From the IMG/VR virus record IMGVR_UViG_3300033141_003975, positions 1 to 61,348 of that record: a DNA stretch of 61,348 nucleotides; one strand, 5' to 3'. Positions 9,558-31,387 of this stretch are shown here, in pieces. Made by a program: the position numbers and the translations under genes. Within the stretch, counting starts at the first letter, position 1. Each line of letters opens with the position of its first letter. A model generated the notes under the pieces. The model did not search any database. It saw only the letters and a list, made by a program, of their open reading frames with translations, and was not told the DNA's origin. The DNA comes from a virus (lineage: Duplodnaviria > Caudoviricetes).

Positions 9558-11507
9558 TTATCTCCTTTCTGCCATGTATTTGATTTCTGCTTTCAATGCC
9601 TCAACTTCGGCCTCAAGCTCTGTAATCCTCTCCTCCTGCCACTTCGTCATCAGCACGGTCTCATGAAGCATGGCGGTATCTCTCCGTCCGATTGTCTTCA
9701 CAGTTACACTCCCATCAGTCGCGCTCACAATTGCATGCTTCGCTTTCCACCGCTCAGGAAAAGTGTCATCTACGATAAGCTCAAACTGACTCGGCGCAAG
9801 ATTCGCTTCCTCTTTAATCCTCTCAATACAATCAACTGTCGTGAGGACTGACTTTGCCTGCACAATTGGCAGTTTGATTTCGTATGAGATCTGGTTCGAG
9901 ATCTTCCTTGCTTTCCTCTTCTCAAACCCTTGCGGACGAATGGCCTGGAAAGCCGCCTTAATGGATGCTTTTTCATCCGCAGTTATCTCGTGCAGCCCAT
10001 CCTTATTTTCGGGGAAACAAGCATAGGTATCCCAGCCGTCGGCTATTGCATTCCCTCCGCCCTGCTTCACGGAGAGTATGTTTGGTGGGTCCGTCACCCC
10101 AATACCAAAATTCCCATCATTGTCTATTACCGCCCTTTGTTCAGCTCCAGTGCTTGCCGTTTTCCCCGTACTTGGAGCCGTGTAAAACTGAATCTCTGTT
10201 GCTGAGGTTTGGATTGACGATTTGCCTCCAACAACAACGATATTCTCACCGTTCTCATTATAGGCTGAAATCATTAACACTTCCTCTTCACTTGTGTCAT
10301 AGGCGGGAACGATAATACCTCCATGTTTTGCAGTATCATCAGCGTTGCTATCTGTAATTCTCAAAGGCCAATCGCCAAGAATATCTACGAGAGCTTTTGG
10401 ATTCGTCGTTCCAATACCAAAATAACCGTTACTGCCAATAACAGCCTTATCCGACGTCCCTATCTGAAAAGTATGCTTACCCCCACTCGGTGCTCTATGC
10501 ACAAGCCGATCATTACTATCTATCCAAAGCATAGACTCAACGGAACCTCCAGAATTTCTACCTTCAATTCGATCTGAATCATTCCTATTCAAAAGCACAT
10601 CACCAACAACCGTAAGTCTCCTATCCGCAGATGTCGTCCCGAGAGCGACGTAACTCTGCGTGCTGATGTCATTCCCATCATCAAACGTCCAATAAGTCGA
10701 TGAGGTACCAACACGTTTGTCATCTGAAAGAATAATATGGTCTGTCGATGTGATCCCATCAAACGTCGGCGTACTCGTCGTCAGCACGTTCTGATCCATA
10801 TCATATAACTCATTCGCTCCCTGCCCCGTATTCAATGTCGAAGCAGACAACCCTCCACTAACACTCATCCCTCCTTCCAGACTCAAATCCCCAGTATCGC
10901 CATTAAGAATCATAGCGTCGGGATTCGTGTCCGAGTGCCACTTGAAGTAAGCATCGGAAGTGAAGTCGAAGGCAAGTGACGAGACACCCAGCTTATAACT
11001 ACCACTATAGAGAGATATCTTGTCCCCAGTCAGATCTGGGAATTGAATCGGCGCCGAGGCAAAAATAAGGGTTCCTGGTGCCAACCCATTCCAGGTAGGG
11101 TCAATATAAATATCCCGCGCTGCCGTCCACATAGCATAGTCCCCGTTGTGGTGGAGCCAGAAATAATCATCAAGCGCTCCTCCAATCCTCACCCCACTAT
11201 ACCCTCCAAACCCATTCATCACGGCTACGGAATTACCAAACACGGCCCCAGACGGCGCCAATACTTCCGCCCCAGCCGGAACAGTCCCTATTCTGAGATC
11301 CTGAAACTCCCCTGTCGTGGATGAAATAGTCGTTGTCACCGACAACACACTCACAGATACTTCACCGGTACCAAAATTGATATCCTGATTTACAGGGATA
11401 GCCCCGTTGATATCCACCTCGGGATTGATACCGTAGGCCCTATCCCGTCCCTGTGCCCAACTAGTGCTTGCTACCAACAGCATTACTACCAGAATCTTCG
11501 CTCTCAT
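9558..11507 (-). CDS. tail fibre/spike-like protein with N-terminal signal peptide and C-terminal S74-like chaperone/coiled coil
   Basis: GGAGG RBS before ATG 11507, MRAKILVVMLLVASTSWA-Q; GxxGIGTTxP repeats; WDTY...K...IRP and terminal coiled coil. Confidence 0.75.
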   Translation of the reverse strand: MRAKILVVMLLVASTSWAQGRDRAYGINPEVDINGAIPVNQDINFGTGEVSVSVLSVTTTISSTTGEFQDLRIGTVPAGAEVLAPSGAVFGNSVAVMNGFGGYSGVRIGGALDDYFWLHHNGDYAMWTAARDIYIDPTWNGLAPGTLIFASAPIQFPDLTGDKISLYSGSYKLGVSSLAFDFTSDAYFKWHSDTNPDAMILNGDTGDLSLEGGMSVSGGLSASTLNTGQGANELYDMDQNVLTTSTPTFDGITSTDHIILSDDKRVGTSSTYWTFDDGNDISTQSYVALGTTSADRRLTVVGDVLLNRNDSDRIEGRNSGGSVESMLWIDSNDRLVHRAPSGGKHTFQIGTSDKAVIGSNGYFGIGTTNPKALVDILGDWPLRITDSNADDTAKHGGIIVPAYDTSEEEVLMISAYNENGENIVVVGGKSSIQTSATEIQFYTAPSTGKTASTGAEQRAVIDNDGNFGIGVTDPPNILSVKQGGGNAIADGWDTYACFPENKDGLHEITADEKASIKAAFQAIRPQGFEKRKARKISNQISYEIKLPIVQAKSVLTTVDCIERIKEEANLAPSQFELIVDDTFPERWKAKHAIVSATDGSVTVKTIGRRDTAMLHETVLMTKWQEERITELEAEVEALKAEIKYMAERR

Positions 11508-11853
11508 CTTGCAACCTCCGTATTTCCTTTTGTAGGCTTTGGATTCTACCCGACAATTCGCTTTGCTCGGCACTAAGCCTCGTAATTGCAGCATTCCTCC
11601 TCAACAACTCCAAATACAATTCATTCTTCAACAACTCCTCGTGAATACTATCCCGTTCAGCTCTCAGCAACAGTATCTGATTTAGGAGCTGCCGCACTTG
11701 CTCTTGCAATTGCTGCATATCCGCTCGTGCCTGTTGAAGCGCTTGTACGGGTACGGCATCAAATGTCCGCGTCGCATTCCGTACCAAACCCACGTCCTGT
11801 GCCACTGTTGTCAAGCCGAATGCCAAAATCAAACCCAACACATAATTCTTCAT
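11461..11853 (-). CDS. signal-peptide coiled-coil protein
   Basis: MKNYVLGLILAFGLTTVA-Q followed by a long heptad repeat. Confidence 0.7.
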   Translation of the reverse strand: MKNYVLGLILAFGLTTVAQDVGLVRNATRTFDAVPVQALQQARADMQQLQEQVRQLLNQILLLRAERDSIHEELLKNELYLELLRRNAAITRLSAEQSELSGRIQSLQKEIRRLQDESEDSGSNAVGSKH

Positions 11854-11869
11854 TTCCTTACCCTTTCTA

Positions 11870-14800
11870 TTATTGAAATTTGGTCAAGTTTACGTAATAA
11901 GTATTACCAGGATCGCTTGCAAACTCAATCAATAATCGCGGCGTTCCCTGCCCGTTGAAGTCCAACCACAATGCTCCAGATCCTGACGGGATAGGCAGAG
12001 AGTTGTTTGCTCCGTCTAAAAGAAACAAAGTCGCACAATAAACCCCGCGTTGGTTTGAGCCGAAATCCCCCACTTCAACACCACTGTATGGCACACTCAG
12101 GGTCGAGTTCATAACATGTGCACTGCTGGGGTTGGAGTCCAGCTTCAACAATGTGGTTCCAGCATTGGATTTGAAATAGATATCCCCGTTGGAGGTCCTT
12201 TCACGTATAGATTCTACACCCAAATATGTTCCGCCATTCATCGTGAAGCTATCGCGGTGATCCCCCCAACTAAATGCAGCATTCCAATTGTCCGCCTTTG
12301 CCAACCGTGCTTCGTCCAAGGTCCCTGATGTGATATTATCCGCACTTGTCCACGGTGTACTGCCATCGCTAAGCTTTTTATCACGCAAATAATTGACCTC
12401 GGTTTGAGTGAAGTCGTCAGCTGGCATCACCACATCCAACTCGCTTCCATCCCAGGTCAAAAACCCCCCAGCTATCTGACTCCCTCTCTCGGCATAGGCT
12501 GTATCCCAGTTACTGGAGTTGTCAGCAATCAGGGTATATGCAGGCCCTGTCGTTCTCACCATTATCCCCGTGCCGGATGAGTAGTGGAAATCCATTGCTG
12601 CTTTGACATTATCCCAATCAGTTACATCGGCACCGTCCTCAATTCCATCCAGCTTATTACCATCGCCTGAAATATCTCTACCATCTACAAGACCGCTTAC
12701 CGATATGTTGCCGGAAACCGTCACGTTACCAGACACACCCAAGCTCGAAAGACCGGAAATCGTCCCTCCCGATGCTGTGAGACTGTCAACGGTTATGTTA
12801 TCCACATCCAGGGTATTGGTGTTGTAGTCGTAAGTGAATGCGGCTTCTGACGACAACGTAACCGAGTCCACCCAGAAAGCCACTCTCTTATCCGCTCCAC
12901 TGCCTCCAACAGAGCCACTCCCACCCCCAGCTATACCATCCACATAACCCTTGGTAGCTGCGTCATCCGCAAGTGTGGGAGTATCGAGATTTGTGATTTT
13001 GTGACCACCAACGTCCAACTCCCCACCTATATTTAATCCTGCTTGGAATGTATAAGTCGAAGCCGACGCAAACACTCCTGCCGTGATGTCGCTCGCAGGG
13101 TGTGTGTGGTTGCCTTCCAGAGCATAGCGTCCGTCGAGATCCTCGAATTGGTCCGACGTGCCGCTCATGTGGGCAGTCAGGATGCCTGTGTTGGTATCAA
13201 AGGACAACCCTGTCAAGTAATAGTTTGGCTTGTTCGTCCACTGCAAACTATTCCCTGCTCCAGCTGTCAACACATACCCCGCATAACTCGTACCGGCATC
13301 CAATTCGTCATTTGTCACAGAATTACTTGGTACGTCTTGGAGAAAAGAACTTGAGTCTATGCCATCGAGGGTGTCGGCATTGACCGAGGTCAAGCTTGAG
13401 CCATTCCCCGAGAAATTATCGGCTGTGAGTGTGTTTGTGTTGTAGTTGTATGTGAAGGCTGCTTCCCCAGACAATGTCACGGAATCAATCCAATAGGCGA
13501 CTTGCTGATCTGAACCATACCCACCAACGGACCCGCTCCCGCCTCCGGCAGCTCCGTCAACATAAGCCTTTGTAGCAGCTTCATCAGAGAAAACCGGTGA
13601 TTGCAACCCCCTCAATCTCCCAGTACTTTGTAAATCAATACCAGTAAAGTATCCGGTTGCCTCGGCGATCACTTCCCCTGACAGAGCATCTATTTTGAAA
13701 GCATCAGTATTCTCGTTGGAATGGAACTTATGCCACCTGTCCGAATAATAGTCAACGTCCTCATAACTCACAGCAATCTTGTAGACACTCCCATAAAGGT
13801 AGATTTTGTCGTCGTAGGTATCAGCACCAAACTGAAACTGTCCATTCGCTGTCACATCGCCCCCGCCAATAATGTCATCCTTCACCGTGACGTCACCCTC
13901 AGTGCCGTCAATAACGAGCAAGTCACTCAGAGTGTCGGAATGGAATCTGTGATTCAGATCCGAGGTATAGTCAATATCATTCTCCGACACCCCTATTTTG
14001 TAATTAGCCCCATGCAGATACACTTTATCCCCGTATGCGTCGGGGGTAAAGCGCAAAGCCGCATCCGACAAAAACACATCAGACCCATCGGGGTCGAGAT
14101 ACAAATCCCCTGCTGTGCTCACATACCCATCCCCTCCGCTCTCATACATAGTCACTTTCCAAGGATTCCCTATCTGAAAACTCGCACCGAGAATTGTTGC
14201 ATTCGGGAACAACAACTTCGTAGCTCCTACTGACCCTTGCACTGTATGAGCAACACTTGTAGCCGTCATGACTTCCCCGCTCAGGGACCAATCCCCGTCA
14301 TTCCCAGTAATCCCACCCCCACCTCCTGTGGCTGTCAAATCATACGTAACCCCGTTCTGGTCCTCAAAATATAACTTGTCATCATCTGTGTCATAATAAA
14401 CCAACCCATACCCTGCTATATTCGTCGGGGTATTCGACTGCCCCTTTATTGCTTGATAACCTTCTATGGTCCAGGCTGCATCAGTTATTGCCCCCACTCC
14501 CCCTTTCTTATTTGATTGCAAATACAAAACCTCGGTGCCGTAGTCGAGGTTGCTGTCGCGGAGACCTATAGTGAGTCGTGTGTGTGCGGCACCTCCGGCA
14601 TGTGACCATCTGTCAAGCAAAAACTCGGCTGCCAAGTCAAAGATATAGGTGCCGTAATACCCACCCTCACGACCGAGTACAAGTGCTGGCTCGGGATCAT
14701 TCAATGTCCCGTCCGGTTCAGTGCTTCGACTATTGGTGCGGAAGAACCCTGGTACAGGTCCATATCCTCCAGCCGTGACACTATGCCAGTCGGATAACGA

Positions 14801-16162
14801 ATAATACCCCATAGCATATAAGGCTTCCCCAACCTGAAATCTCGCTTGCGCATCTTGGTCACTATCCGTAACCGAAACCCTCCCATTCCCTTCTATATTG
14901 ATTCTCACTTCATTACTCGTCTTGAATCCAAGCGCATAACTATCGGTATTCCCCAATGTCCTATCTGCTCCCCCAGCCTCCCCTCCATTCTGAAAGTCAG
15001 GCTCAATCACCGCGCTGTCTACGTAATTCTTCGTAGCTGCATCACTATTGGATTGAGGCTCACCAACAGATGTCAATCTATGCGAGCCAAAGCTCACACT
15101 GCCGTTGAATGACCCGCCGGAACCAAAATCCCCTCTACCCCCCACCTCTATATTCCCTTCAAGAGACGCGCTCCCAACATCAGCATTAAACACAACTCCA
15201 TTCAGGTTCTCGTCGCTGTGGAATCGAAAGTAGAGGTCGGAAGTGAGGTCGAAATCCTGTGGTGATATCCCGATTTTGTAAGTATCTGAATAGAACGACA
15301 CCTTGTCCTCAAACTCATCCTCAAACACGACTTCCGCCTGAGGCACAATAACCCCGCTTGCAACTCCGCCCCATGTTGGATCGAGATAGATATCCCGCCA
15401 TGAACTTAGTCGCACGTAAGCCCCGTCATGGTATAAACGAAAATAGTCTGTTGCGTCTTTGCCAATAAATATCCCACTTTGCGGGCCAGTCCCGTTCAAT
15501 ACAGCTATTCCATTACCGAAGATCGACCCTGTTGGTATTAAATTTTCTGCATTGTCCGGCACATCGCCCATACGCAGATCCGTCAGATATCCACTAGCCG
15601 CATGAATTGCTCGTGCCGCCGCGAAGTCCCGCTCGACCGTAGCATCCCCAACATCCGCATCCAACACCATTGCGTCATTGTTCGTGTCTGAGTGCCATTT
15701 AATATATTGCTCAGACGTAATGTCCAAGTCATACGGTGAGATACCAATCTTGTACATATCGGAGTAGAAGGTGATTTTGTCGCCAAGATAGTCTTCAAAC
15801 ACCACGGTCGCGCACGGCACAATAACTGCATTCACCGCACCCTCCCATGTAGGATCAATGTAAATATCACGTGCAGACATCCACCGCGCGTAACTCCCAT
15901 CATGGTAGATACGGAAATAATCCGACGACTTCCCTACCTTAATCCCAGCATCACTGCCAAACCCACCAAATATATGTACGGAAGTGGCGTCCAGGATATT
16001 GGCATGGAGTGTCCCCAAGATCCAATTATTGGCGAAGCGCGACAGGACCCTCGGGTCCCCAGGCCCAGGCTGCCCCTGCACACTATTTGGTCTGATAGTG
16101 CACCACAACAGCAGCACCATCAGGAGGTGTAATGCGAAATTCGATGTTCTTGAGTTTCCCAT
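11870..16162 (-). CDS. long tail fibre/adhesin with DAATKxYVD neck motifs and internal repeats; putative signal peptide
   Basis: Three (D/E)AATKxYVD motifs, four DK.FYS..YKIG.S..D.D.TSD...FHSD repeats, duplicated GGGSGSVGG...YNTNTL block. Start 16162 is inferred (ORF opens at 16213). Confidence 0.78.
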   Translation of the reverse strand: MGNSRTSNFALHLLMVLLLWCTIRPNSVQGQPGPGDPRVLSRFANNWILGTLHANILDATSVHIFGGFGSDAGIKVGKSSDYFRIYHDGSYARWMSARDIYIDPTWEGAVNAVIVPCATVVFEDYLGDKITFYSDMYKIGISPYDLDITSEQYIKWHSDTNNDAMVLDADVGDATVERDFAAARAIHAASGYLTDLRMGDVPDNAENLIPTGSIFGNGIAVLNGTGPQSGIFIGKDATDYFRLYHDGAYVRLSSWRDIYLDPTWGGVASGVIVPQAEVVFEDEFEDKVSFYSDTYKIGISPQDFDLTSDLYFRFHSDENLNGVVFNADVGSASLEGNIEVGGRGDFGSGGSFNGSVSFGSHRLTSVGEPQSNSDAATKNYVDSAVIEPDFQNGGEAGGADRTLGNTDSYALGFKTSNEVRINIEGNGRVSVTDSDQDAQARFQVGEALYAMGYYSLSDWHSVTAGGYGPVPGFFRTNSRSTEPDGTLNDPEPALVLGREGGYYGTYIFDLAAEFLLDRWSHAGGAAHTRLTIGLRDSNLDYGTEVLYLQSNKKGGVGAITDAAWTIEGYQAIKGQSNTPTNIAGYGLVYYDTDDDKLYFEDQNGVTYDLTATGGGGGITGNDGDWSLSGEVMTATSVAHTVQGSVGATKLLFPNATILGASFQIGNPWKVTMYESGGDGYVSTAGDLYLDPDGSDVFLSDAALRFTPDAYGDKVYLHGANYKIGVSENDIDYTSDLNHRFHSDTLSDLLVIDGTEGDVTVKDDIIGGGDVTANGQFQFGADTYDDKIYLYGSVYKIAVSYEDVDYYSDRWHKFHSNENTDAFKIDALSGEVIAEATGYFTGIDLQSTGRLRGLQSPVFSDEAATKAYVDGAAGGGSGSVGGYGSDQQVAYWIDSVTLSGEAAFTYNYNTNTLTADNFSGNGSSLTSVNADTLDGIDSSSFLQDVPSNSVTNDELDAGTSYAGYVLTAGAGNSLQWTNKPNYYLTGLSFDTNTGILTAHMSGTSDQFEDLDGRYALEGNHTHPASDITAGVFASASTYTFQAGLNIGGELDVGGHKITNLDTPTLADDAATKGYVDGIAGGGSGSVGGSGADKRVAFWVDSVTLSSEAAFTYDYNTNTLDVDNITVDSLTASGGTISGLSSLGVSGNVTVSGNISVSGLVDGRDISGDGNKLDGIEDGADVTDWDNVKAAMDFHYSSGTGIMVRTTGPAYTLIADNSSNWDTAYAERGSQIAGGFLTWDGSELDVVMPADDFTQTEVNYLRDKKLSDGSTPWTSADNITSGTLDEARLAKADNWNAAFSWGDHRDSFTMNGGTYLGVESIRERTSNGDIYFKSNAGTTLLKLDSNPSSAHVMNSTLSVPYSGVEVGDFGSNQRGVYCATLFLLDGANNSLPIPSGSGALWLDFNGQGTPRLLIEFASDPGNTYYVNLTKFQ

Positions 16163-17255
16163 TAGTATCCGCCCTCTCGTAGTATTGCCCATAAGGGTTA
16201 GTGTCTGCGTCATAACGTGTCCAAGACTGCGTCCCCACAGTCACTCGCGTTGTTCCTGGCACAAACTCATCATCAAGCTCCACCACTCCGCCATAGCTCG
16301 CATGACTATACTCTACTCCATACACTTGCCATTGCCGCTGCCCACTAGCTAGGGCTCCTATTGGCAACAGATATCTGTGCTCGATAACGTCGGTGGCAGC
16401 TGGTGGTCCTTTTACAAAACGGTAATAGCGGTGGTTCCCGAGCTCTTCGTAAGACAGCCCAGGCATCTGCCTAAGCCTATTTACGTAAACCTGCAAAGTC
16501 CCTTCCGCGTATGGTTGCTGGGTGCTAAACAGATTAACCTCACCATCGGGGCTTATTGCCGGTCGTCTGTCCGAGGGACGATTAAGCATCCCATCCGAGC
16601 GAGGCTCGATATAGTCGTGCCATACGACATCAGTAGCGTAGGGTGTCCACGTGAACGTATACCCCTTCCGGTCCGAATCCTCCTCATAATCAATACCTCT
16701 GCGCATAATTCTACCATTTACAAACACGCATAGGGTCCCCGACGCAAAATTATACTTCGTACTGAAATGCTTCTGCCCGTCCCCTGTCCCCTCGCTGGGC
16801 ACTTCGCCCCAGTGATGCGAAACAAAGCCCCAAGACGTGTAGGGCTCGAAACGGTGCGTTACGACTTCCCCTTGTCTCGGGGCCACCATCATTGTGTAAT
16901 ACCCGCCTGACTCATCCACTGTGTAGTCTATGTCTTTGTATTGGAGCAAGCCATTCACCCAAACATCGACACTGTCGGGGTTGACGGAGTAGGGGAAGGT
17001 GAAGATAGTCCTGGAACCATCTGGTGTCTCCGGCGGCGACTCAGAGCCTCCATTTGAGGCAGGGAAGAGGTTCAGCCAGCTGCCTGTGGCGGGGTCGAGG
17101 ACTTGAAGCACATGCGTCCAGCAACCGTCCCTGAGTGTGGCATTATCTCTGAACCCAAACTCCCTCGGGTCTTTCTGCTCGGCACCATCAGGCAGAGGTT
17201 GCCGTACAATTACCTCATCCGCCACCAAATATCTGACTTCTTTGACCAGGCTCAT
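16083..17255 (-). CDS. tail-associated protein with three ~75-aa beta repeats
   Basis: VWVNGLLQ..IDY, VFVNGRIM..IDY and VYVNRLRQ..LSY repeats. Confidence 0.7.
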   Translation of the reverse strand: MSLVKEVRYLVADEVIVRQPLPDGAEQKDPREFGFRDNATLRDGCWTHVLQVLDPATGSWLNLFPASNGGSESPPETPDGSRTIFTFPYSVNPDSVDVWVNGLLQYKDIDYTVDESGGYYTMMVAPRQGEVVTHRFEPYTSWGFVSHHWGEVPSEGTGDGQKHFSTKYNFASGTLCVFVNGRIMRRGIDYEEDSDRKGYTFTWTPYATDVVWHDYIEPRSDGMLNRPSDRRPAISPDGEVNLFSTQQPYAEGTLQVYVNRLRQMPGLSYEELGNHRYYRFVKGPPAATDVIEHRYLLPIGALASGQRQWQVYGVEYSHASYGGVVELDDEFVPGTTRVTVGTQSWTRYDADTNPYGQYYERADTNGKLKNIEFRITPPDGAAVVVHYQTK

Positions 17256-17264: not shown

Positions 17265-17621
17265 TTAGGCTAATCCCACTTCCACCCAACTCGACTCATT
17301 CCACACCAACAACTTATTCTCATCCTCAACCCACTTAATCAATCCGGCAAAGGGTGAAAGAAATGACCAAAGTCCGTTGTGGAAATAGGCAAGATCGTTA
17401 TCCAAGGCTCTCTCGCCCCAACCATCCGAACCACCACCACCAGAGGCTACAATATACAAATCCCCTTCTGCGGGTGACGTCGGAGGAGAAGTCCTCGTCC
17501 TGTTCTTCACGGGTGTTAATAGAAAAGCTGCAAGAACAAACAGATTGGTGTTGTAGTGCTGGTAAGCAGCTGTCGTGTTGGAGCTGAGTAATGAAAGGAA
17601 ACCGTCTGGTGTCCTAGCCAT
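17265..17621 (-). CDS. DUF2793-like tail protein
   Basis: PPTSPAEGDLYIVA...W...LAYF.NG.WSF..P..G...WVEDE pattern; position after the tail tip gene. Confidence 0.8.
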   Translation of the reverse strand: MARTPDGFLSLLSSNTTAAYQHYNTNLFVLAAFLLTPVKNRTRTSPPTSPAEGDLYIVASGGGGSDGWGERALDNDLAYFHNGLWSFLSPFAGLIKWVEDENKLLVWNESSWVEVGLA

Positions 17622-17623
17622 AA

Positions 17624-20600
17624 TTACCTCCGACGTATGGCAAATGGGTACGCATCACTTCGTCTTACCAAGTTACGGATATAGGCATTCAGTGTGATGC
17701 CATAACCTTGTGACCAGAGATAGAGTTTGTTGGTATTCAGATTGTGAACTATGTCGTAGAAGCTCAATGCGAAGTGAACTGTCCCGCCCACGTTTCCCGT
17801 GTCCGTAATATCCACACGCCACACTTTCTCTTCACCATCCGCCGTACTATCTGCCGGCAATACCATCTCCACCCACAAATGCGAATCAGAATACCTTGTC
17901 TGAAACTCATGCCATATCTCCGCAGGGACATTTGCACTGGTGTCAATGTATATGTCGAAACCTTTCTGTGACCCTATTGCCAAATCCTCACTATACTCCC
18001 ATTCAACACTGATTGGCGGATAAGGCGATATTGTGTTTCCGTAAAACGTGTGGACAATCATTTTCACGATATCGAGGCTATCATCCCTATCCGTTATCTT
18101 GAGCCTCTGCGAGACGCCTATAACACTCCTGTCCATAGGCACCCAACCCACACGTATTTCCCCGTCATTGTCCCGCAAACAAAACACACTCTCCCCAACA
18201 AGATGATCGCCAGTTTTCGTATTGGTACCAAACATCCCCCGCCACAACTTCGACAAGGTATAGGTACCATCACCATTATCCTCCACCCTCTCAGCCTGTA
18301 TTATTTCCGTCCCGACCAAATAAACATTCGCTTTCTTCTCCAACTGTTCTTGGCCAGACACTGATCGCGGCTCAACCAGATCTGTCGTATTAGGCTTTAT
18401 CACAACATCATTAACTTCATCCACCACTTCGCATGTTTCAACATCATCAAGAGCTGTCTCTGCTCGGGCCAAGAACGTCCCGAGGGATTCAAACTCACAA
18501 ATCATCTGCCAGCCGTCTGTCGGAGACGGATTACTCAGACTTGTCTTCCATACTTGCGCTCCACCACCCAAACCCGCTTGAATGGCATCCGCATTAGGAC
18601 ACACTGCTATATACATTCCTGGCCTGCGCGGGTCTGTGTGCTCAGGTGCTATAGCGGGTATTTCTAATATGTGGAATTCACGAGTGGGAACCAGTAATTG
18701 TGTTTGGGTTCGTCCCGAGGGGATGATGCCGGAGCGGTCCGAGTTATACACGGTTGGGTGGTCTCTGGCAACTTTGAGCTCCAACCTCCCCGCCGGATCA
18801 TAATTCGTGCTCACGACACGCAATCTATACGTTTGTGAATTCACTTCCACTTCCAGAATATCTGAAGGTTCATACTGGATGAGCGTGGGTTTGAGATACA
18901 GCTTCGCCGTCCTGTTACTCACCCAGCGCTCGGAAAGCAAAGTATCGGCTATTTGTGCTGCCTTATCGTGTTCCAGAGCCAGGGGCAGATTGACCGTCTC
19001 TGTCGTGAAGGAAGTTGACAGACCCTGGTTGCGCTGAGCAGCTTGCGTGGCTGTTTGATAATCAGAATTAGGATCTATGTAGGCAACTTCAACACGGTAG
19101 GGCACCCCAACTTCTTCTCCCCCCGTGGTTGTAATCCAATCAACAAACTCATCATACTCTTTCATCTTGGCATAACCCAGATCCTCCTCAGTCAAGTGCC
19201 CATCTGCCTCAATCTTACCCCTTGACACAAACTTGATCTTATCCCCACTCTGGTAATAGTCGAAGAAATAAGCCTGTCTCAACATAGCCAGCGTATCATT
19301 GACACTCTCGCGGTATGTCAGCTTCATACCTTCGACTTCAATTGAACCAAGGTTGGACTCCGAAAAGTCCAAGTCACTTTCCGACAACCCCACACTCTCA
19401 CACAGATCCGTAATCACACGTTGTACCGTCGGTTTGTTACGAACAATGGTGAAGTTGTCCAAATAATAAACCGTATTCACTTTACTTCCGCCTACTTCCC
19501 CGCCAATCAACCAACAACGTCCTCCTATGCTTATTGACGCGGGATAGTCTGTGTAATTCGGAGGTGCGAATATGGTTGGGAGTTGTTCCCAAACATTTCC
19601 ATTCGTACTTACCCAAGTCTCGACCGAACCCTGCTCTCCGTTAATCACAGCCACCAGCTTCCCCTCAAAGACATCAGGGTTGGTCGGGTCGTACTCCCCA
19701 GTCGGTTCCGTAGCATAAGCAGCCACAACCCTCTTGCTCAAATCAGGCCCGAGGTTGGACGCATTATTGATATTCTCGGTACAGGGACTGAAACACCAGG
19801 TGTACCATTGCTGCATGGCCCCTACCGTATGTCCCTGCTGGACTATTCCGGGAACGGGTTTGTAAAGCTCAAAGGTATGAGTCTGTGTGCTCTCATCCCA
19901 GATGTGGTCTTTGATATTGTAGGGTTGGTCTTTGACGACAAGAAAGCCGCCGTTGTAGTAACCGGAAACCTCGACAAGGTCCTCATTCGCCTCAACTATA
20001 ACCGTATAAGTACCCCCATAGTAATCGTCCGTGTCGGTTGCAACAGTACCGGAATGCAAATTACCGTCAGCTGCGGTCACACCCAATCGCCAACACGCAT
20101 TGCTCTTGTTGTAATTATTCAGATTCAAACCACCAATACAATAAATAGCACCTTTATAACCTACAAGGAAATGATCCATGTAAGCATCAGATCCCCAGCA
20201 TTCTTCACTCCAACACGTTGCGCAAGAGGAATAACTTTCAGGTCCGATAGCTACAATCTGTAGCGTCCACAGATCAGTCTTGGGAATGGTGCTATTGTAT
20301 AAACCCCCACAGAAAATAATTGCACAGTCCGGCACCTGTCCAGCATAAAACCCTCCCATTTGTTTCGTAGGAACAATGCCTATTGCACCAAGACCCTCCC
20401 TGTTTTCGAGATCTGGGGCATCACCATAACTTGGTACATCGAGAAGGGGACATGTTTGAAGTAAAGGCCGCCAGGTCCCGCTGCTTTCATGGACATTAGC
20501 TATCATAGCATAACAAGAATGCTCTGAAGAACTCCATAGACAATCAGAACCACCAGGGAACATAACTATACTGTGACTGCCAGAAAGAGCTGCTGCCTTG

Positions 20601-21499
20601 ACATTACAACCACCCAGAGCCCATTTTTCATCAATAGCAATATCGTGACCCCAATGCCCGTCAGATGTCCGCGTCCAACATTCTTTAGAGTTATAGTCAG
20701 AGGCAGTCACCCCCCCAATAATCTTGAACCCACCCTCTTTTGGCACACACCCTGCTCTACTCACAAGCGTCCCAGGGAAGACATCATCAGCCAGTACCCA
20801 AGAAGCTGATGCATTTACATTTTCATTTGTCACCTCAAAGGTTGCGATAGGAATATGTGCACCATAATTCGTGATCCTGTACCCCCGCCCTCTGACGGTC
20901 AGATGTGCATCGCAGGAGTCTTTGCCGCTCTGGAATACGGCGTAGGCAATTCCAGGCTCAGTCGGTACAAACGCCTCCTCCTCTATGACTTTTATTACAG
21001 ACGAAGCCGGCTGCGTAGTCTTCCCCAAATAGACCATAATCGTGCCGTCGTTGTTGGGGAATCTGATGTAAGTCGGACTTTCCAAATCATCAGGAATACA
21101 GGTTGGACCTCGTGGATTATCCCTGTCATAAACAAGCTTCCCGTCCAACCAAATTCTCTTGACATCGCGGATAGGGCCTTTACATATTGCTACGGCCCAG
21201 CGCGTGTAATAATCCGTAGGATGAGATCCCCGCGAACGCTTTACTATATTCCCGCTCCACCATATAATCTTTCCTGCAACTCTCATCCTCCCCCACACCC
21301 TCGGAATATCCTCACCATAACTCCCACCAGGTGTGTATAAGTCTGCATTCAGGGAACTTGTCTTGGGCTTAGCCCCAGGAGTCGCAGCTACGCCGAGCAA
21401 AAACCCTGCCTGAATGGCCCACCAAGCGCCTCCGGTGAGGAAGCCCAGGACCAGAGCGCCAAAAATACCGCCCAATAATTTTCCAAACGAACTGCCCAT
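17624..21499 (-). CDS. central tail tip/host-specificity protein (GTA megatron/Phage-tail_3-like) with inserted Kelch-like region
   Basis: YGEDIPRVWGRMRVAGKIIW N-terminus; AYFFD...GDKIKFV; VAYIDPNSDYQ; YTLSKLWRGMFGT. Confidence 0.82.
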   Translation of the reverse strand: MGSSFGKLLGGIFGALVLGFLTGGAWWAIQAGFLLGVAATPGAKPKTSSLNADLYTPGGSYGEDIPRVWGRMRVAGKIIWWSGNIVKRSRGSHPTDYYTRWAVAICKGPIRDVKRIWLDGKLVYDRDNPRGPTCIPDDLESPTYIRFPNNDGTIMVYLGKTTQPASSVIKVIEEEAFVPTEPGIAYAVFQSGKDSCDAHLTVRGRGYRITNYGAHIPIATFEVTNENVNASASWVLADDVFPGTLVSRAGCVPKEGGFKIIGGVTASDYNSKECWTRTSDGHWGHDIAIDEKWALGGCNVKAAALSGSHSIVMFPGGSDCLWSSSEHSCYAMIANVHESSGTWRPLLQTCPLLDVPSYGDAPDLENREGLGAIGIVPTKQMGGFYAGQVPDCAIIFCGGLYNSTIPKTDLWTLQIVAIGPESYSSCATCWSEECWGSDAYMDHFLVGYKGAIYCIGGLNLNNYNKSNACWRLGVTAADGNLHSGTVATDTDDYYGGTYTVIVEANEDLVEVSGYYNGGFLVVKDQPYNIKDHIWDESTQTHTFELYKPVPGIVQQGHTVGAMQQWYTWCFSPCTENINNASNLGPDLSKRVVAAYATEPTGEYDPTNPDVFEGKLVAVINGEQGSVETWVSTNGNVWEQLPTIFAPPNYTDYPASISIGGRCWLIGGEVGGSKVNTVYYLDNFTIVRNKPTVQRVITDLCESVGLSESDLDFSESNLGSIEVEGMKLTYRESVNDTLAMLRQAYFFDYYQSGDKIKFVSRGKIEADGHLTEEDLGYAKMKEYDEFVDWITTTGGEEVGVPYRVEVAYIDPNSDYQTATQAAQRNQGLSTSFTTETVNLPLALEHDKAAQIADTLLSERWVSNRTAKLYLKPTLIQYEPSDILEVEVNSQTYRLRVVSTNYDPAGRLELKVARDHPTVYNSDRSGIIPSGRTQTQLLVPTREFHILEIPAIAPEHTDPRRPGMYIAVCPNADAIQAGLGGGAQVWKTSLSNPSPTDGWQMICEFESLGTFLARAETALDDVETCEVVDEVNDVVIKPNTTDLVEPRSVSGQEQLEKKANVYLVGTEIIQAERVEDNGDGTYTLSKLWRGMFGTNTKTGDHLVGESVFCLRDNDGEIRVGWVPMDRSVIGVSQRLKITDRDDSLDIVKMIVHTFYGNTISPYPPISVEWEYSEDLAIGSQKGFDIYIDTSANVPAEIWHEFQTRYSDSHLWVEMVLPADSTADGEEKVWRVDITDTGNVGGTVHFALSFYDIVHNLNTNKLYLWSQGYGITLNAYIRNLVRRSDAYPFAIRRR

Positions 21500-27619: not shown

Positions 27620-27643
27620 CGCTATATCTCCTTTCAAGATTTA

Positions 27644-28069
27644 TCATGTCACGGTCACAGCACCTGAAATTCGCAAGGTGAATGTGCCACCAAGCAATTC
27701 CTTAACCGAAACGTCAATAGACAATCCAGTGATATACGCGGAAAATGTCATCTCGGTCTCGGCGGTATTGGGGAATACGATTTTGAAATCGGTCAATTCC
27801 CGATTATCCATCTTCGTTTTCAGGGCCTGATGCGTCGTGTTATCAGGAATATACCCGACCTCAATCGTCACTTCCCCACCCGTCTTGATGCCAGGCAACA
27901 ACTCCTCATACCCATTCGGGCTGTCCATGTGGGTGCAGTCGATAATTTCAGCTGTGATATTCGGCCCTGAAATGGAATGGACCTCGGCGATATCGACGAA
28001 CGATCCCTCCCCTTGATCGTATTTAATCAGGGTCCCCAGCCCGATCATTGCTTGTGATGTTGTACCCAT
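27644..28069 (-). CDS. major tail tube protein
   Basis: IAEVHSISGPNITAEIIDCTHMDSP...PGIKTGGEVT...TLRISG. Confidence 0.9.
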   Translation of the reverse strand: MGTTSQAMIGLGTLIKYDQGEGSFVDIAEVHSISGPNITAEIIDCTHMDSPNGYEELLPGIKTGGEVTIEVGYIPDNTTHQALKTKMDNRELTDFKIVFPNTAETEMTFSAYITGLSIDVSVKELLGGTFTLRISGAVTVT

Positions 28070-28088
28070 CTTGCAACTCCTTTCTCGG

Positions 28089-28550
28089 TTAATATCTAAT
28101 TACGGCGAAAATCAACGCCGTGGCGCTGGATGGAGTGACGGAAGCTATATACTGCCCTGACTCCAAATACCCCAAACCAGCAACAGCCCCAAAATGAAAA
28201 CAAGCTACTTCACTCGCACTCAGAACATAATCTGTAATATGAGCTGTTCGATTATTCAGTGGGGTTGTATTGATTGTGAAGGTAGCAGTTGCCGTATCAC
28301 TGCTATAATCGCGATTCCGCACAAGCAAAAACTCCTTTCCTGTAATCGCGAATGTAGCCCCTGTCGTAGGACTTGCCACAGTCCAGTTCAGATCGAGACT
28401 ATCCGCGTCAACAGGAACGGATACATACGGCCCCAAGGGTTCTTGTACGTCAACTTCCGTAGCCCAAGCATTGAGCCAGCATATAGGCAAAATCACAATA
28501 GCGGTAATTGCCATACTCAGAATACTGTGTTTGATTGCTCTCACTCTCAT
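28089..28550 (-). CDS. signal-peptide beta-rich protein in the neck/tail operon
   Basis: GGAGGTG RBS; MRVRAIKHSILSMAITAIVILPICWLNAWA-TEV. Confidence 0.7.
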   Translation of the reverse strand: MRVRAIKHSILSMAITAIVILPICWLNAWATEVDVQEPLGPYVSVPVDADSLDLNWTVASPTTGATFAITGKEFLLVRNRDYSSDTATATFTINTTPLNNRTAHITDYVLSASEVACFHFGAVAGLGYLESGQYIASVTPSSATALIFAVIRY

Positions 28551-28553
28551 GTT

Positions 28554-29631: not shown

Positions 29632-29981
29632 AACAACGATCCTTCGCGTTGCGTTGGGTATGATCCCGTCAGGACCAAGCCTTCCCGAGGAGCACCATAT
29701 TCTGTTATCCCCTCGATAATGTACTTTTTGTCATCCATCTCCACGGCCCAGGATAAGGCAATATCATCCCGATGCCGTATCAGGAACAACTTCCTCACCC
29801 TCGTCCCCGTTTGATCTTGTGCGTATAAATCCTCCGGCTTCTCTTTCAGCACCGCCGCCCAGACTTCATCAACTTCTTCCCAAGCCGAATCACGCTGCAA
29901 GTTGGGGTCTCCATAAATATCCTCAGCCCCTGTCGGTTTGAGGAGCTTTATACGTATGCGCAGTGTGCCAGCTTGTATCAT
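29628..29981 (-). CDS. head closure/head-tail adaptor (SPP1 gp16-like)
   Basis: AGTLRIRI...VWAAV...IRHRDDI...Y.I..I. Confidence 0.82.
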   Translation of the reverse strand: MIQAGTLRIRIKLLKPTGAEDIYGDPNLQRDSAWEEVDEVWAAVLKEKPEDLYAQDQTGTRVRKLFLIRHRDDIALSWAVEMDDKKYIIEGITEYGAPREGLVLTGSYPTQREGSLL

Positions 29982-30559
29982 GAGAACACCCCACCTACGC
30001 GGTACATATTCAGGATGGACATTGGACCGAGAGGGATTGAGGCCTGCGCTGTGGCATACCCCGTAACCTCTCTATTGGAAAATAAATGCCCGCATATTTG
30101 CAATATCGCGTGTTTGATATCCTCAGGTACATCACCGGCGCCACCGTAGCCACAGACGAAAGTCACCGTGACCGCGTTCATCTCGTTGTAGGTTGCAGGC
30201 CACACATAATTAGCCTTGGGTGCGATCCTCCCTGGTTCCCGCTTCGTGTCAACCTGATATTCCGAAACCGACCAAGTTGTCTCCACGTTATTCGCGTCGT
30301 AATACACGATGCCGGGGACGGACTGTAGTGGTGGCCTCGGTACCCAGATGTAGTCGGGAGGGAACGTGTCCAGGTACAAATCCCAAGTCTGCGTGACAAA
30401 TGCTCGACGAGTGTATTCCTCTGCAATACGCCGTGCAGACGTAATCAACTTCGTGAGCAAAGTGTCTTCGGAGGAGCCGTCCTCTCGGATGTGGCTCTTC
30501 ACCTCAGCCAAGGTTACCGGCTCCTCCGCTGGCGCGCTGATAAGTCTGGCCGTCACCAT
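29978..30559 (-). CDS. head-tail connector (HK97 gp6/SPP1 gp15-like)
   Basis: PAEEPVTLAEVKSHIR...AEEYTRRAFVTQTW...VPEDIKHAIL...NRE. Confidence 0.9.
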   Translation of the reverse strand: MVTARLISAPAEEPVTLAEVKSHIREDGSSEDTLLTKLITSARRIAEEYTRRAFVTQTWDLYLDTFPPDYIWVPRPPLQSVPGIVYYDANNVETTWSVSEYQVDTKREPGRIAPKANYVWPATYNEMNAVTVTFVCGYGGAGDVPEDIKHAILQICGHLFSNREVTGYATAQASIPLGPMSILNMYRVGGVFS

Positions 30560-30568
30560 CTCATCCCT

Positions 30569-31387
30569 CTACCATCCTTGTCTGTTGGACCAGACGCGGA
30601 TGTAGTCGATGTGAAATTGTCGCGTTCCGGCAGCTCTGTTCTGAATGCCGAAATACGGACAATAGAAAACACCCGTGTTAATTGCTGATGCTACTGGGGC
30701 ATTGACCAGATTGCCGTCGAAGTAGAATGTGACGGTCCCGTCAACACCCAACTCCACACGTAGCGTATGCCACGTCTGGGCCAAAGCAGCTGTGGTAATT
30801 GCCGTGTCGGTTGCTTCATAGGCTGTGCTCTTCGTGCCATCTTTGACACAAACAGTCCGAATGTGATCTGTCGTTGTGTCCGCGTCAAAGAAAAACACGG
30901 CACAGTTACTGGCAGCTGCCGTAATAGTCAGAGCACCCGAACCTACAATAGGAAGAGTGGAACTCTCTGCTTGTGCATCCGAGAACCCTACGTTCCAGGC
31001 GCAGGTTGGGTTGTCAAACCGCACCCGAGCTTCAAGAGCAGCTGCCATATCCGCACGCCATGCCACTTGACCCGCAAATTGACCGAGGTCGTTGTCGGCA
31101 GCAGCAGTGTGTATTGCCCAAGTTCCGCAACTCACCTGGCAAGAACTCGCCCCTACCGTTGCAAAGGCAAAGCCTCCAGGAGTTGCATGGCCAATTTCCC
31201 CGACTGCACCCTGTGGCACATCGAGGAACTCCAATTCCAAGTACTGGGGGTAGAATGGGTGAATGGTTTCCTGAGACGCGGAGTCTATGTACAAGAACCG
31301 CATATCACGATTCCGCGCCTCCGTACCCCCGAACACCACCCCGACGGTCAAAGCCATCAGGACTACGAGAAAGCTAAAACGCTTCAT
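30569..31387 (-). CDS. signal-peptide protein with concanavalin A/LamG-like beta sandwich
   Basis: GGGAGG RBS before ATG 31387, MKRFSFLVVLMALTVGVVFG; WHTLRVEL...VTFYFDG...IDYIRVW. Confidence 0.72.
   Translation of the reverse strand: MKRFSFLVVLMALTVGVVFGGTEARNRDMRFLYIDSASQETIHPFYPQYLELEFLDVPQGAVGEIGHATPGGFAFATVGASSCQVSCGTWAIHTAAADNDLGQFAGQVAWRADMAAALEARVRFDNPTCAWNVGFSDAQAESSTLPIVGSGALTITAAASNCAVFFFDADTTTDHIRTVCVKDGTKSTAYEATDTAITTAALAQTWHTLRVELGVDGTVTFYFDGNLVNAPVASAINTGVFYCPYFGIQNRAAGTRQFHIDYIRVWSNRQGW

What the first reader, a model, noticed from the sequence alone, without database searches (positions are those of the whole stretch)
9558..31387. Morphogenesis operon encodes five proteins with Sec-type signal peptides, including both fibre proteins
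Seen: five genes interleaved with ordinary head and tail genes start with a basic n-region, hydrophobic core and small-residue cleavage site. They are 31387 MKRFSFLVVLMALTVGVVFG (lectin-like, two genes after the capsid), 28550 MRVRAIKHSILSMAITAIVILPICWLNAWA (before the tail tube), 16162 MGNSRTSNFALHLLMVLLLWCTIRPNSVQG (long fibre; weakest case, overlaps the upstream gene), 11853 MKNYVLGLILAFGLTTVA and 11507 MRAKILVVMLLVASTSWA (second fibre). Three have GGAGG-type RBSs. Known: tailed virions assemble in the cytoplasm, and fibres normally begin with a virion-attachment domain. Inference: this phage exports its fibres and decoration proteins to the periplasm and adds them at or after lysis, or displays/releases them as adhesins. 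Either would be an unusual two-compartment assembly system.
Basis: partly seen in the sequence, partly recalled or inferred. Interest (0 to 1): 0.85.

Follow-up and report, generated by a model that had tools for sequence, protein, structure and literature searches.

The report
Phage fibre and accessory proteins carrying export signals
An uncultured long-tailed phage, like its few distant relatives, puts ordinary bacterial secretion signals on its fibre proteins and on small accessory proteins encoded among the head and tail genes, so these parts probably mature outside the cytoplasm where the particle is built.

Summary
Four of the five N-termini (starts 31387, 28550, 11853, 11507) are well-formed Sec/signal-peptidase-I-type leaders behind good ribosome sites. 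The fifth (16162) is plausible but overlaps the upstream gene by 80 nt and has a leaderless alternative start at 16081.

The leaders are conserved as a feature, not as sequence.
- All 4 full-length relatives of the lectin-like protein keep one.
- About a third of the 104 representatives of the 153-aa family carry one that ends just before the conserved domain. The rest start at the domain.
- Leader-bearing and leaderless forms both lie directly upstream of the tail-tube gene.
- Three related contigs also put a leader on the fibre or spike gene after the tail-tip genes.

Export is therefore well supported (about 0.85 for the four). No trained predictor could be run.

Whether the exported proteins join the particle at lysis is untested here (about 0.4). 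Acting only on the cell envelope is about equally likely. One precedent was checked: Cellulophaga phage phi18:3 gp085-087 are annotated as MS/MS-detected structural proteins and carry such leaders.

This scan has already noted the same phenomenon on many other genomes. I found no published description of it for tail fibres.

The parts
30569..31387 (-).
   Evidence: Start and RBS. Four full-length relatives (P0002-P0004 and the L005 protein) keep a hydrophobic leader of different sequence in the same slot after capsid + 160-aa gene. A fifth relative, P0005, has a major-tail-protein N-domain in its place. No Pfam or PHROG hit. The AF2 model is poor (pLDDT 51.7).
28089..28550 (-). 153-aa leader-bearing beta-sandwich protein directly upstream of the tail-tube gene
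   Evidence: Start and RBS. 104 representatives at E<=1e-3, self included. 34-36 have leaders and about 68 do not. AF2 pLDDT 90.8: helix 2-25 plus a beta-sandwich. BFVD matches are to uncharacterised phage proteins of about 115 aa.
11870..16162 (-). Long fibre protein, 1430 aa from ATG 16162; ORF open to 16213; alternative GTG at 16081
   Evidence: Holds four copies of a ~150-aa beta-rich domain shared with the 649-aa protein and with a leader-bearing 284-aa protein in L006. PHROG tail-fibre hits cover only about 35 residues.
11461..11853 (-). 130-aa leader-bearing coiled-coil protein between the two fibre genes
   Evidence: Only sub-threshold coiled-coil Pfam hits. No relatives were sought specifically.
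9558..11507 (-). 649-aa second fibre protein with the strongest leader and a GGAGG site
   Evidence: 109 relatives share only a short repeat motif, and 46 of those 109 pass my leader rule.
16083..17255 (-). 390-aa leaderless four-repeat protein; its 3' end is overlapped by the putative leader of the long fibre
   Evidence: PHROG virion/tail-fibre hits. A protein ending in the same repeat type precedes the leader-bearing fibre or spike gene in L006 and L023.
17265..17621 (-). 118-aa DUF2793 protein, leaderless
   Evidence: PF10983, E 2e-18.
17624..21499 (-). 1291-aa central tail-tip protein (Phage-tail_3 + Rcc01698_C) with a glycine-rich hydrophobic N-terminus
   Evidence: Passes my rule but has no AxA-type c-region context. 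The L023 homologue has a similar N-terminus.
27644..28069 (-). Tail tube protein
   Evidence: PF16461, E 6.5e-18; phrog_158.
31404..31886 (-). 160-aa leaderless protein between the capsid gene and the 272-aa protein
   Evidence: Syntenic equivalents in L003, L004 and L005.
31908..33365 (-). Major capsid protein (HK97 type)
   Evidence: PF05065, E 8e-40.
9268..9555 (-). 95-aa protein with one N-terminal membrane helix and a coiled coil; holin candidate
   Evidence: No family hit. The holin assignment rests on position only.
8710..9264 (-). Endolysin (GH108 + PG_binding_3), no leader

Best explanation
The five genes encode late proteins with genuine Sec-type, signal-peptidase-I-cleaved leaders. 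They belong to a set of outer, probably glycan-binding appendage proteins:
- a lectin-like protein in the head module
- a small beta-sandwich next to the tail-tube gene
- two fibres that share an N-terminal beta-rich domain
- a small coiled-coil partner

The phage is an uncultured siphovirus with an RcGTA-type tail tip.

Proposed route:
1. The proteins are translated from the late operon together with the head and tail genes.
2. The host Sec translocon takes them across the inner membrane.
3. The leaders are removed after about residue 20 (272 aa), 30 (153 aa), 30 (long fibre), 18 (130 aa) and 18 (649 aa).
4. The proteins fold in the periplasm.
5. They meet the cytoplasm-built particles only when the holin and endolysin merge the compartments, and then dock as late add-on appendages.

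Shown here: the leaders exist, sit behind good start sites, and are conserved as a feature across distant relatives. They are also gained or lost within one family without any change of gene position.

Inferred: actual translocation and cleavage (about 0.85 for four proteins, about 0.6 for the long fibre), a diderm host, and docking onto particles.

The confidence figure below is for the whole chain, docking included.
For: Start sites and n-h-c organisation.

272-aa family:
- 4 of 4 full-length relatives have leaders of unrelated sequence, in the same slot after the capsid gene.
- L025 has a different leader-bearing protein in that slot.

153-aa family:
- 104 representatives. 34 pass my rule and 36 pass a hydrophobicity cut, self included. 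About 68 start directly at the conserved domain.
- In an alignment of 15 leader-bearing members the first 25-35 residues vary freely, and conservation starts right after the small-residue site.
- On a tree of 89 members the leader label needs 9 changes against 24.5 for shuffled labels (0 of 500 shuffles as low). A supported clade (SH-aLRT 97) of 21 leader and 3 leaderless rows holds the window protein. Well-supported branches force at least 4 changes.
- Leader forms lie directly upstream of the tube gene in 4 of 4 loci: window, L004/L022, L024, L025. Leaderless forms do so in 2 of 2 loci: L026, L027.

Fibres:
- L006 has a 284-aa protein with an unambiguous, non-overlapping leader followed by two copies of the domain shared by the window's two fibres. 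It sits right after a protein ending in the 390-aa-type repeat.
- L023 has a 707-aa beta-helix protein (PF13229, E 1.5e-19) with a leader in the same place.
- 46 of 109 motif-sharing relatives of the 649-aa protein pass the rule.

Operon structure: there is no excess of promoter- or terminator-like sites, and none flanks these genes. Gaps to neighbouring genes are 3-19 nt.

Virion link:
- The relative P0005 joins the lectin-like domain to a major-tail-protein domain (phrog_158, E 1.5e-15).
- Atlas neighbours of both small proteins are 83-100% viral.
All three start with such leaders.
- In phi46:3, the four homologues annotated as structural by similarity (gp079-082) and the neighbouring gp083 have leaders. 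15 other late proteins examined there have none.
Against: - No trained signal-peptide predictor was available, and my rule is permissive (22 of 277 ORFs pass).
- Nothing here shows that any of the five proteins is in the particle.
- The tail-tip protein, DUF2793 protein and 390-aa repeat protein are leaderless and might suffice for adsorption.
- The fibres have no recognisable virion-attachment domain.
- Many motif-sharing relatives of the 649-aa protein may be cellular surface proteins.
- The phage also encodes leader-bearing and lipoprotein genes outside the late operon, so it uses export for other purposes too.
- The long fibre's leader needs 80 nt of dual coding and has a leaderless alternative start.
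- The host is unknown, so 'periplasm' is assumed. It rests on a GH108/PG_binding_3 endolysin (recalled host association), a lipoprotein gene, and a lipoprotein gene overlapping the endolysin gene in L023.
- MS detection in phi18:3 could reflect co-purifying material. The paper behind the record could not be read.
Confidence: 0.4

Rival explanations
1. The proteins are truly exported but are not parts of the particle. They act on the envelope of the infected cell or in the surrounding medium. Possible roles are masking or degrading receptors and surface glycans, so that progeny and superinfecting phages do not stick to the dying cell and its debris, or adhesion to neighbouring cells. The leaderless family members would do the same job after release by lysis.
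For: All the export evidence above applies.
- Established precedent, recalled: phage-encoded exported proteins next to tail genes, such as lambda Lom and the receptor-blocking lipoproteins T5 Llp and Cor.
- P. gingivalis phages encode signal-peptide proteins of unknown function. The authors read these as envelope modifiers (PMC10367356, passages read).
- L023's leader-bearing protein is a beta-helix of the depolymerase type.
- 46 of 109 relatives of the 649-aa protein have leaders, and some may be cellular adhesins.
- Bdellovibrio exports phage-fibre-like adhesins built as signal peptide + conserved beta-rich N-domain + fibre (PMC10769870, passages read).
Against: - The genes are not moron-like. 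They have no promoter or terminator of their own and sit in conserved slots inside the head and tail modules.
- Both small families are overwhelmingly viral.
- One relative is fused to a tail-tube domain.
- The fibre genes occupy the usual tail-fibre position, and no leaderless long fibre is encoded.
- phi18:3's leader-bearing proteins were annotated as structural from MS/MS.
Confidence: 0.35
2. The hydrophobic N-termini are uncleaved membrane anchors or membrane-active segments, not secretion leaders. They would either tether the proteins to the inner membrane or serve as virion elements that insert into the host membrane during infection, as the hydrophobic segments of tape-measure and tail-tip proteins do.
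For: - The h-regions of the 272-aa and 153-aa proteins are long (17-19 uncharged residues), which is compatible with a signal anchor.
- AF2 models residues 2-25 of the 153-aa protein as a lone helix.
- The tail-tip protein of this phage and of L023 has a hydrophobic glycine-rich N-terminus that is not a classical leader.
Against: - In the 153-aa family the segment is dispensable: about two thirds of members lack it.
- Its sequence is unconstrained, and it ends in AxA-type sites immediately before the conserved domain. This is the pattern of a cleaved leader, not of a functional structural element.
- The 130-aa and 649-aa proteins have short h-regions (9-11 residues), too short to span a membrane.
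Confidence: 0.12
3. Start-codon artefact. The true starts lie downstream of the hydrophobic stretches, and the 'leaders' are untranslated or out-of-frame readings.
For: This applies to the long fibre only.
- The stretch overlaps the clearly coding 3' end of the 390-aa gene by 80 nt.
- A GTG at 16081 lies 2 nt after that gene's stop.
- A 43-codon open extension in an overlapping frame is not rare.
Against: - In the 153-aa gene there is no in-frame ATG, GTG or TTG between the leader and the conserved domain.
- The 272-aa, 153-aa and 649-aa genes have GGAGG-type sites at the leader ATG.
- Relatives called independently keep leaders.
- For the long fibre, the homologous-domain protein in L006 has a non-overlapping leader in the equivalent gene position.
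Confidence: 0.05
4. The 130-aa protein and the overlapping start of the 649-aa gene are a spanin pair, that is, lysis proteins bridging the inner and outer membrane.
For: - The 130-aa protein has an N-terminal hydrophobic segment and a long coiled coil.
- The next gene starts inside its 3' end in another frame, as in overlapped spanin pairs. The spanin architecture is taken from passages of PMC3556154.
Against: - The overlapping gene encodes a 649-aa fibre-like protein with no lipobox cysteine in its leader.
- The pair is separated from the holin-like and endolysin genes by that fibre gene.
Confidence: 0.05

Closest known systems
Cellulophaga phage phi18:3 gp085, gp086, gp087 (GenBank KC821620) and their phi46:3 homologues gp079-082 (KC821622)
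   Same: Consecutive large late proteins of a cultured tailed phage. Each starts with a basic n-region, a hydrophobic core and a small-residue site. In phi18:3 they are annotated 'structural protein, annotation based on experimental MS/MS proteomics analysis'. Other structural proteins of the same phage lack leaders.
   Different: It is a podovirus of a Bacteroidota host. There is no sequence similarity to the window's proteins (blastp). All its leaders are followed by Gln. The record says nothing about export, and the paper behind it could not be read. The lead came from earlier notes of this scan.
Signal-peptide proteins of Porphyromonas gingivalis phages (Matrishin et al. 2023, PMC10367356; passages read)
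   Same: Phage genes with Sec signal peptides, read as use of the host's general secretion system.
   Different: The paper names capsid proteins, spanins and five genes of unknown function. It reads them as envelope modifiers and does not mention fibres or tail-module proteins in the passages I read.
Bdellovibrio bacteriovorus MAT fibres (Caulton et al. 2024, PMC10769870; passages read)
   Same: Same build: signal peptide, then a conserved beta-rich N-domain of about 130 aa, then a mosaic phage-tail-fibre-like trimer. The window's two fibres have a leader followed by a shared ~150-aa beta-rich domain.
   Different: MAT fibres are encoded by a cell, not a phage, and are used for prey recognition. 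Homology is not shown: the best PDB sequence matches are 8on4/8oml 'cell wall surface anchor family protein' at E 0.19 and 0.74, which is not significant, and their origin in Bdellovibrio is only my guess. No S74 chaperone domain was found.
Exported moron and exclusion proteins beside tail genes: lambda Lom and Bor, T5 Llp, Cor of phi80/T1-like phages (recalled, not searched)
   Same: Phage-encoded proteins with signal or lipoprotein leaders, located in or next to tail-fibre regions.
   Different: Those are small outer-membrane proteins or lipoproteins with their own expression signals. They are not conserved residents of the head and tail modules, and they are not fibre-like. The moron criteria were tested here and not met.
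Filamentous phage (Inoviridae) coat proteins (recalled)
   Same: Virion proteins made with Sec leaders and assembled outside the cytoplasm.
   Different: This is a different virus realm. The whole particle is assembled at the membrane by extrusion, without lysis.

Membership tests
Sec / signal peptidase I cleavable signal peptide | Positively charged n-region at the N-terminus | tested here: met
   Net charge of +1 to +3 before the hydrophobic core in all five proteins.
Sec / signal peptidase I cleavable signal peptide | Uncharged hydrophobic h-region of about 7-20 residues | tested here: met
   9-19 residues; best 9-residue Kyte-Doolittle mean of 2.7-3.6. The 272-aa and 153-aa cores are at the long end.
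Sec / signal peptidase I cleavable signal peptide | Small neutral residues at -3 and -1 a few residues after the core | tested here: met
   Candidate sites were found in all five. In the long fibre the c-region holds an Arg and is 7 residues long, which makes it weaker.
Sec / signal peptidase I cleavable signal peptide | Not a lipoprotein (no lipobox Cys) and not Tat (no twin-arginine motif) | tested here: met
   Read directly from the sequences. There is no Cys at a lipobox position and no RR motif in the n-regions.
Sec / signal peptidase I cleavable signal peptide | Score from a trained predictor, or experimental cleavage or export | not testable with these tools
   No SignalP or DeepTMHMM is on hand, and there are no experiments.
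Moron (independently expressed accessory gene inside a late operon) | Own promoter and terminator flanking the gene; composition unlike the neighbours | tested here: not met
   Promoter- and terminator-like sites are not above the shuffled expectation, and none flanks the five genes. Gaps to neighbours are 3-19 nt or overlaps. GC in 2-kb windows across the operon (8-38 kb) is 0.45-0.54, with no step at these genes.
Two-component spanin (130-aa protein + overlapping gene) | Outer-membrane partner is a small lipoprotein with a lipobox Cys | tested here: not met
   The overlapping gene encodes a 649-aa protein whose leader has no Cys.
Virion tail fibre | Recognisable N-terminal attachment domain or family-level match to known fibres | tested here: inconclusive
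   The long fibre has PHROG tail-fibre hits over about 35 residues only. The 649-aa protein has no Pfam or PHROG hit. Neither the shared N-terminal domain nor the 649-aa protein has a match in GenBank phages. Gene position after the tail-tip genes fits.
Virion tail fibre | Presence in purified particles | not testable with these tools
   The phage is uncultured.
Bdellovibrio MAT fibre family | Sequence homology of the post-leader N-domain, or an S74 chaperone-protease domain | tested here: not met
   No significant PDB sequence match (E 0.19 at best). No PF13884 hit. Only the build is alike.

The most novel reading that the evidence does not exclude
Part of a tailed virion is supplied from a second compartment. 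In this siphovirus clade the fibres and small decoration-type proteins are exported by Sec, mature in the periplasm, and dock onto cytoplasm-built particles only at lysis. The 153-aa family has switched between leader-bearing and leaderless forms at least four times while keeping its slot beside the tail-tube gene. This would then show that the same virion part can be delivered from either side of the membrane.
Probability: 0.35. Interest if true: 0.85.

Novelty: new variant of a known kind. Interest (0 to 1): 0.6.

Why it matters
Textbook tailed-phage assembly takes place entirely in the cytoplasm. If host-recognition parts are routinely exported first, several things follow:
- Fibres could use periplasmic folding, disulfide formation or glycosylation.
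- Infectivity of a burst would depend on the host's Sec pathway and on mixing at lysis.
- Predicting host range from fibres, and engineering them, would have to take leader processing into account.
- Annotation pipelines that treat a signal peptide as evidence against a structural role would be wrong for these clades.

If the proteins never join the particle, the result still matters. A conserved, operon-embedded set of secreted fibre-like and lectin-like proteins would be a new class of phage tools acting on the cell envelope.

This window adds three things to what the scan had already noted on other genomes:
- a siphovirus with an RcGTA-type tail tip
- a widespread small protein family with the same gene slot with and without a leader
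- a natural fusion of the lectin-like domain to a tail-tube protein

Tried and rejected
- **Close relatives.** Single-protein scans of IMG/VR with the 272-aa protein, the 153-aa protein and the capsid found none. The same was true of P0124.
- **GenBank phages.** No match by megablast. No match by tblastn with P0125, the fibre N-domain, the 272-aa, the 153-aa or the 649-aa protein. One uninformative hit came from a leaderless relative.
- **Word-indexed search.** A search with residues 19-215 of the 649-aa protein found only the protein itself.
- **Alignment-based locus searches.** I used single proteins instead.
- **The look-up of encoding contigs.** I therefore could not see the genomic context of most of the 104 + 109 relatives, or check leader co-occurrence on a large scale.
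- **Structure.** The AF2 model of the 272-aa protein was poor (pLDDT 51.7), so I did not fold-search it. The PDB fold search with the 153-aa model gave nothing below E 0.03.
- **Complex prediction.** I sent residues 225-390 of the 390-aa protein with residues 31-185 of the long fibre. The verdict was 'no answer', score 0.00. It counts neither for nor against binding.
- **Host.** It was not identified. I did not use the look-up of sequencing runs or read laying.
- **Bacteroidota host.** Gln follows the predicted site in three of the five proteins and in the related fibre proteins. However, 20 of 27 late genes have a strong Shine-Dalgarno core. By recalled knowledge this does not fit Bacteroidota, so the idea is left as a note.
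- **Literature.** Eight answered searches and passages of seven papers gave no description of Sec leaders on tail fibres of tailed phages. This library lacks most subscription journals, and supplements were closed. Supplementary Data 4 of PMC10367356 and the proteomics tables behind the Cellulophaga records could bear on the claim.

Full report
**What the window is.** It is a 61,348-bp virus record. The late genes run on the minus strand from about 37.2 kb down to 8.7 kb.

| Gene | Evidence |
|---|---|
| large terminase, portal | by position and size |
| S78 prohead protease | PF04586 |
| HK97-type capsid | PF05065 |
| head-tail connector, tail-completion protein | |
| lambda-type tail tube | PF16461 |
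| tape measure | by position and size |
| DUF2460 protein, phiJL001-gp84-type hub | |
| 1291-aa tail-tip protein | Phage-tail_3 + Rcc01698_C |
| DUF2793 protein | |
| 390-aa four-repeat protein, two fibre-like proteins | |
| holin-like membrane protein | by position |
| GH108/PG_binding_3 endolysin | |

The phage has no close relative in GenBank phages or IMG/VR. 20 of 27 late genes have a GGAG/GAGG/AGGA core upstream.

**The observation.**
- Starts 31387, 28550 and 11507 follow GGAGG-type sites.
- Start 11853 follows a weaker AAGG site.
- Start 16162 follows GAGGG at a 9-nt spacing.

Each has a basic n-region, an uncharged hydrophobic core and small residues at -3/-1. None has a lipobox or a twin-arginine motif.

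No trained predictor was available, so I wrote a plain n-h-c rule.
- 6 of 27 late genes pass at their start: the five, plus the glycine-rich N-terminus of the tail-tip protein.
- Among 277 six-frame ORFs, 22 pass when every start in the first 60 codons is tried. Roughly half of these are not genes.

The rule alone is therefore weak. What counts is conservation.

**The fifth case.** The long fibre's leader lies in the last 80 nt of the 390-aa gene. That gene codes right up to its stop, because its final residues fit its own repeat. An in-frame GTG at 16081, 2 nt after that stop, would give a leaderless protein starting three residues before the predicted cleavage site.

One thing speaks for the leader. 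In L006, a contig of the same MAG as a relative of the 272-aa protein, a protein ending in the same repeat type is followed by a 284-aa protein. This protein starts 27 nt downstream, without overlap. It has an unambiguous leader and two copies of the domain that the window's two fibres share.

I put the long fibre's leader at about 0.6. Both starts may be used.

**Conservation of the 272-aa protein.**
- Only five proteins in 5.8 billion match it, one being itself.
- The three of similar length (263-268 aa, 30-35% identical) and the one in L005 (54% identical to P0002) all begin with a hydrophobic leader of unrelated sequence.
- In L003, L004 and L005 the gene sits in the same place: capsid, a ~160-aa protein, then this gene.
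- The fifth relative, P0005 (376 aa), has no leader. Its first 159 residues match phrog_158, the major-tail-protein family of the window's own tube. In at least one phage, therefore, this domain is part of a virion protein.
- Atlas neighbours are 91-100% viral. Some carry PF22237.
- My AF2 model was too poor to use.

**Conservation of the 153-aa protein.** HMMER against 1.84 billion representatives gave 104 proteins, self included. They fall into two forms.
- About 68 are 115-134 aa long and start directly at the conserved domain.
- 34-36 carry an extra 25-35 residues. These have a basic start, a hydrophobic core and an AxA-type site right before the domain. Most are 138-161 aa long, and four or five are two-domain forms of 262-275 aa.

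In an alignment of 15 leader-bearing members, the leader region has almost no conserved column, and conservation begins immediately after it.

I built a tree of 89 members on the domain columns only.
- The leader label needs 9 changes, against 24.5 for shuffled labels (0 of 500 as low).
- One clade (SH-aLRT 97) holds 21 leader and 3 leaderless rows, including the window protein.
- Well-supported branches force at least 4 changes.
- 15 of the 104 were left out of the tree: the two-domain forms, a 74-aa fragment and a few odd lengths.

The gene position does not change with the form.
- Leader forms lie directly upstream of the tube gene in the window, L004/L022, L024 and L025.
- Leaderless forms do so in L026 and L027.
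- More distant leaderless relatives lie elsewhere, in high-GC contigs that look actinophage-like to me: after the capsid gene in L010 and L014, and in another context in L008 and L012.

The AF2 model (pLDDT 90.8) is a lone helix at residues 2-25 plus a beta-sandwich. It matches only uncharacterised ~115-aa phage proteins in BFVD (7 hits at E<=1e-3) and nothing in the PDB.

**The fibres.** The 649-aa and the long protein share a ~150-aa beta-rich domain right after the leader. The long protein holds four copies of it.

The 109 database relatives of the 649-aa protein share only a short repeat motif. 46 of these 109 pass my leader rule, but their genomic context could not be seen.

In G002:C41 (L004 + L023), a temperate relative with an integrase, the gene order runs as follows: tail-tip protein, a 217-aa protein ending in the 390-type repeat, a 707-aa right-handed beta-helix protein with a leader, a holin-like protein, an M15 endolysin, and a lipoprotein.

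Three loci therefore show the same order: a leaderless protein ending in that repeat, then a leader-bearing fibre or spike.

**Not morons.** Promoter- and terminator-like sites are at the shuffled expectation, and none brackets the five genes. The genes abut or overlap their neighbours.

**What it most likely is.** Export by Sec with signal-peptidase-I cleavage is the simplest reading of a dispensable, sequence-free, n-h-c-shaped N-terminal extension that ends at the domain boundary. I give it about 0.85 for four proteins.

The fate of the proteins is open. For late docking onto particles:
- the operon-embedded, conserved slots
- the same slot with and without a leader, which means the job must be doable from either compartment
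- the tail-tube fusion
- the fibre position
- a cultured precedent that I checked after a lead from earlier notes of this scan

The precedent is as follows. In Cellulophaga phage phi18:3 (KC821620), gp085-087 are 'structural protein, annotation based on experimental MS/MS proteomics analysis', and all three start with classical leaders. In phi46:3, the four homologues gp079-082 and the neighbouring gp083 have leaders, and 15 other late proteins I examined there have none.

Against docking:
- There is no evidence that any of the five proteins is in a particle.
- The leaderless tail-tip proteins could suffice for adsorption.
- Exported phage proteins with envelope roles are well known.
- The MS annotation could reflect co-purifying material, and the paper behind it was not held.

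My odds are:

| Reading | Odds |
|---|---|
| Exported, then docks onto particles | about 0.4 |
| Exported, acts only on the envelope | about 0.35 |
| Uncleaved anchor or membrane-active segment | about 0.12 |
| Other readings (start artefact, spanin pair; these cover single genes only) | remainder |

**Comparison with what is known.**
- Nearest in print that I could read: Matrishin et al. 2023 on P. gingivalis phages. It reports signal peptides on capsid, spanin and unknown genes, read as envelope modifiers (passages).
- Nearest in build: the Bdellovibrio MAT fibres, made of a signal peptide, a conserved beta-rich N-domain, then a phage-like fibre (passages). Homology to them is not shown.
- The Q-rule paper was seen only as a listing with the start of its abstract.
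- My eight answered searches found no paper that describes Sec leaders on the fibres of a tailed phage. The library lacks most subscription journals, and supplements were closed.

**Earlier notes of this scan.** A word search returned 368 notes in at least 349 genomes. The eight shown describe the same phenomenon in podophages, crAss-like phages and a lambda-like prophage. One later check priced the bold reading low (9/100). In another, part of the claim fell.

This window is therefore not the first sighting within the scan. Its own contributions are the dimorphic tail-module family, the tail-tube fusion and the RcGTA-type siphovirus setting.

**Verdict.** It is a new variant of a known kind, namely phage-encoded exported proteins. 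Interest is 0.6.

Noticed in passing
window 17624-21499 (-); L023 1106-4519: The 1291-aa tail-tip protein starts with a glycine-rich hydrophobic stretch of about 40 residues without a classical cleavage context. Its 1137-aa counterpart in L023 does too. It may be a membrane-active segment used at infection.
   Followed up: partly
window 56825-57370 (-), 54100-54513 (-), 56557-56847 (-), 40512-40751 (+): There are further exported or membrane proteins outside the late operon: a 181-aa protein with a classical leader, a 137-aa lipoprotein with a lipobox, and two small proteins with one membrane helix. None has a Pfam hit (the first three were scanned).
   Followed up: partly
window 16079-16085: An in-frame GTG lies 2 nt after the stop of the 390-aa gene and three codons before the predicted cleavage site of the long fibre. 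The gene could therefore give two products, one exported and one cytoplasmic.
   Followed up: partly
window 11853, 11507, 16162 leaders; L006 1393 and 2562; L023 5246: Gln follows the predicted cleavage site in three of the five window proteins and in all three leader-bearing fibre-region proteins of the related loci, as in the Bacteroidota Q-rule. The phage uses strong Shine-Dalgarno sites (20 of 27 late genes), which by recalled knowledge does not fit a Bacteroidota host.
   Followed up: partly
L003 14406-18160: A related IMG/VR phage has what look, from their N-terminal sequences alone, like methyltransferase and family-2 glycosyltransferase genes. They lie between the tail-completion and tail-tube genes, where the window has the 153-aa gene. 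This may be virion glycosylation. No family scan was run.
   Followed up: no
L004 14483-14767: A 94-aa protein with a lipoprotein-type leader lies between the tail chaperone genes and the tape measure of the related temperate phage.
   Followed up: no
P0005 (376 aa, metagenomic protein): This protein is a natural fusion of a major-tail-protein domain (phrog_158) with the domain of the window's 272-aa protein.
   Followed up: partly
window 8394-8709 and 9268-9555: No spanin candidate was found near the endolysin gene. The 316-nt gap downstream holds only tiny ORFs. The 95-aa membrane + coiled-coil protein upstream is the only lysis-partner candidate.
   Followed up: partly
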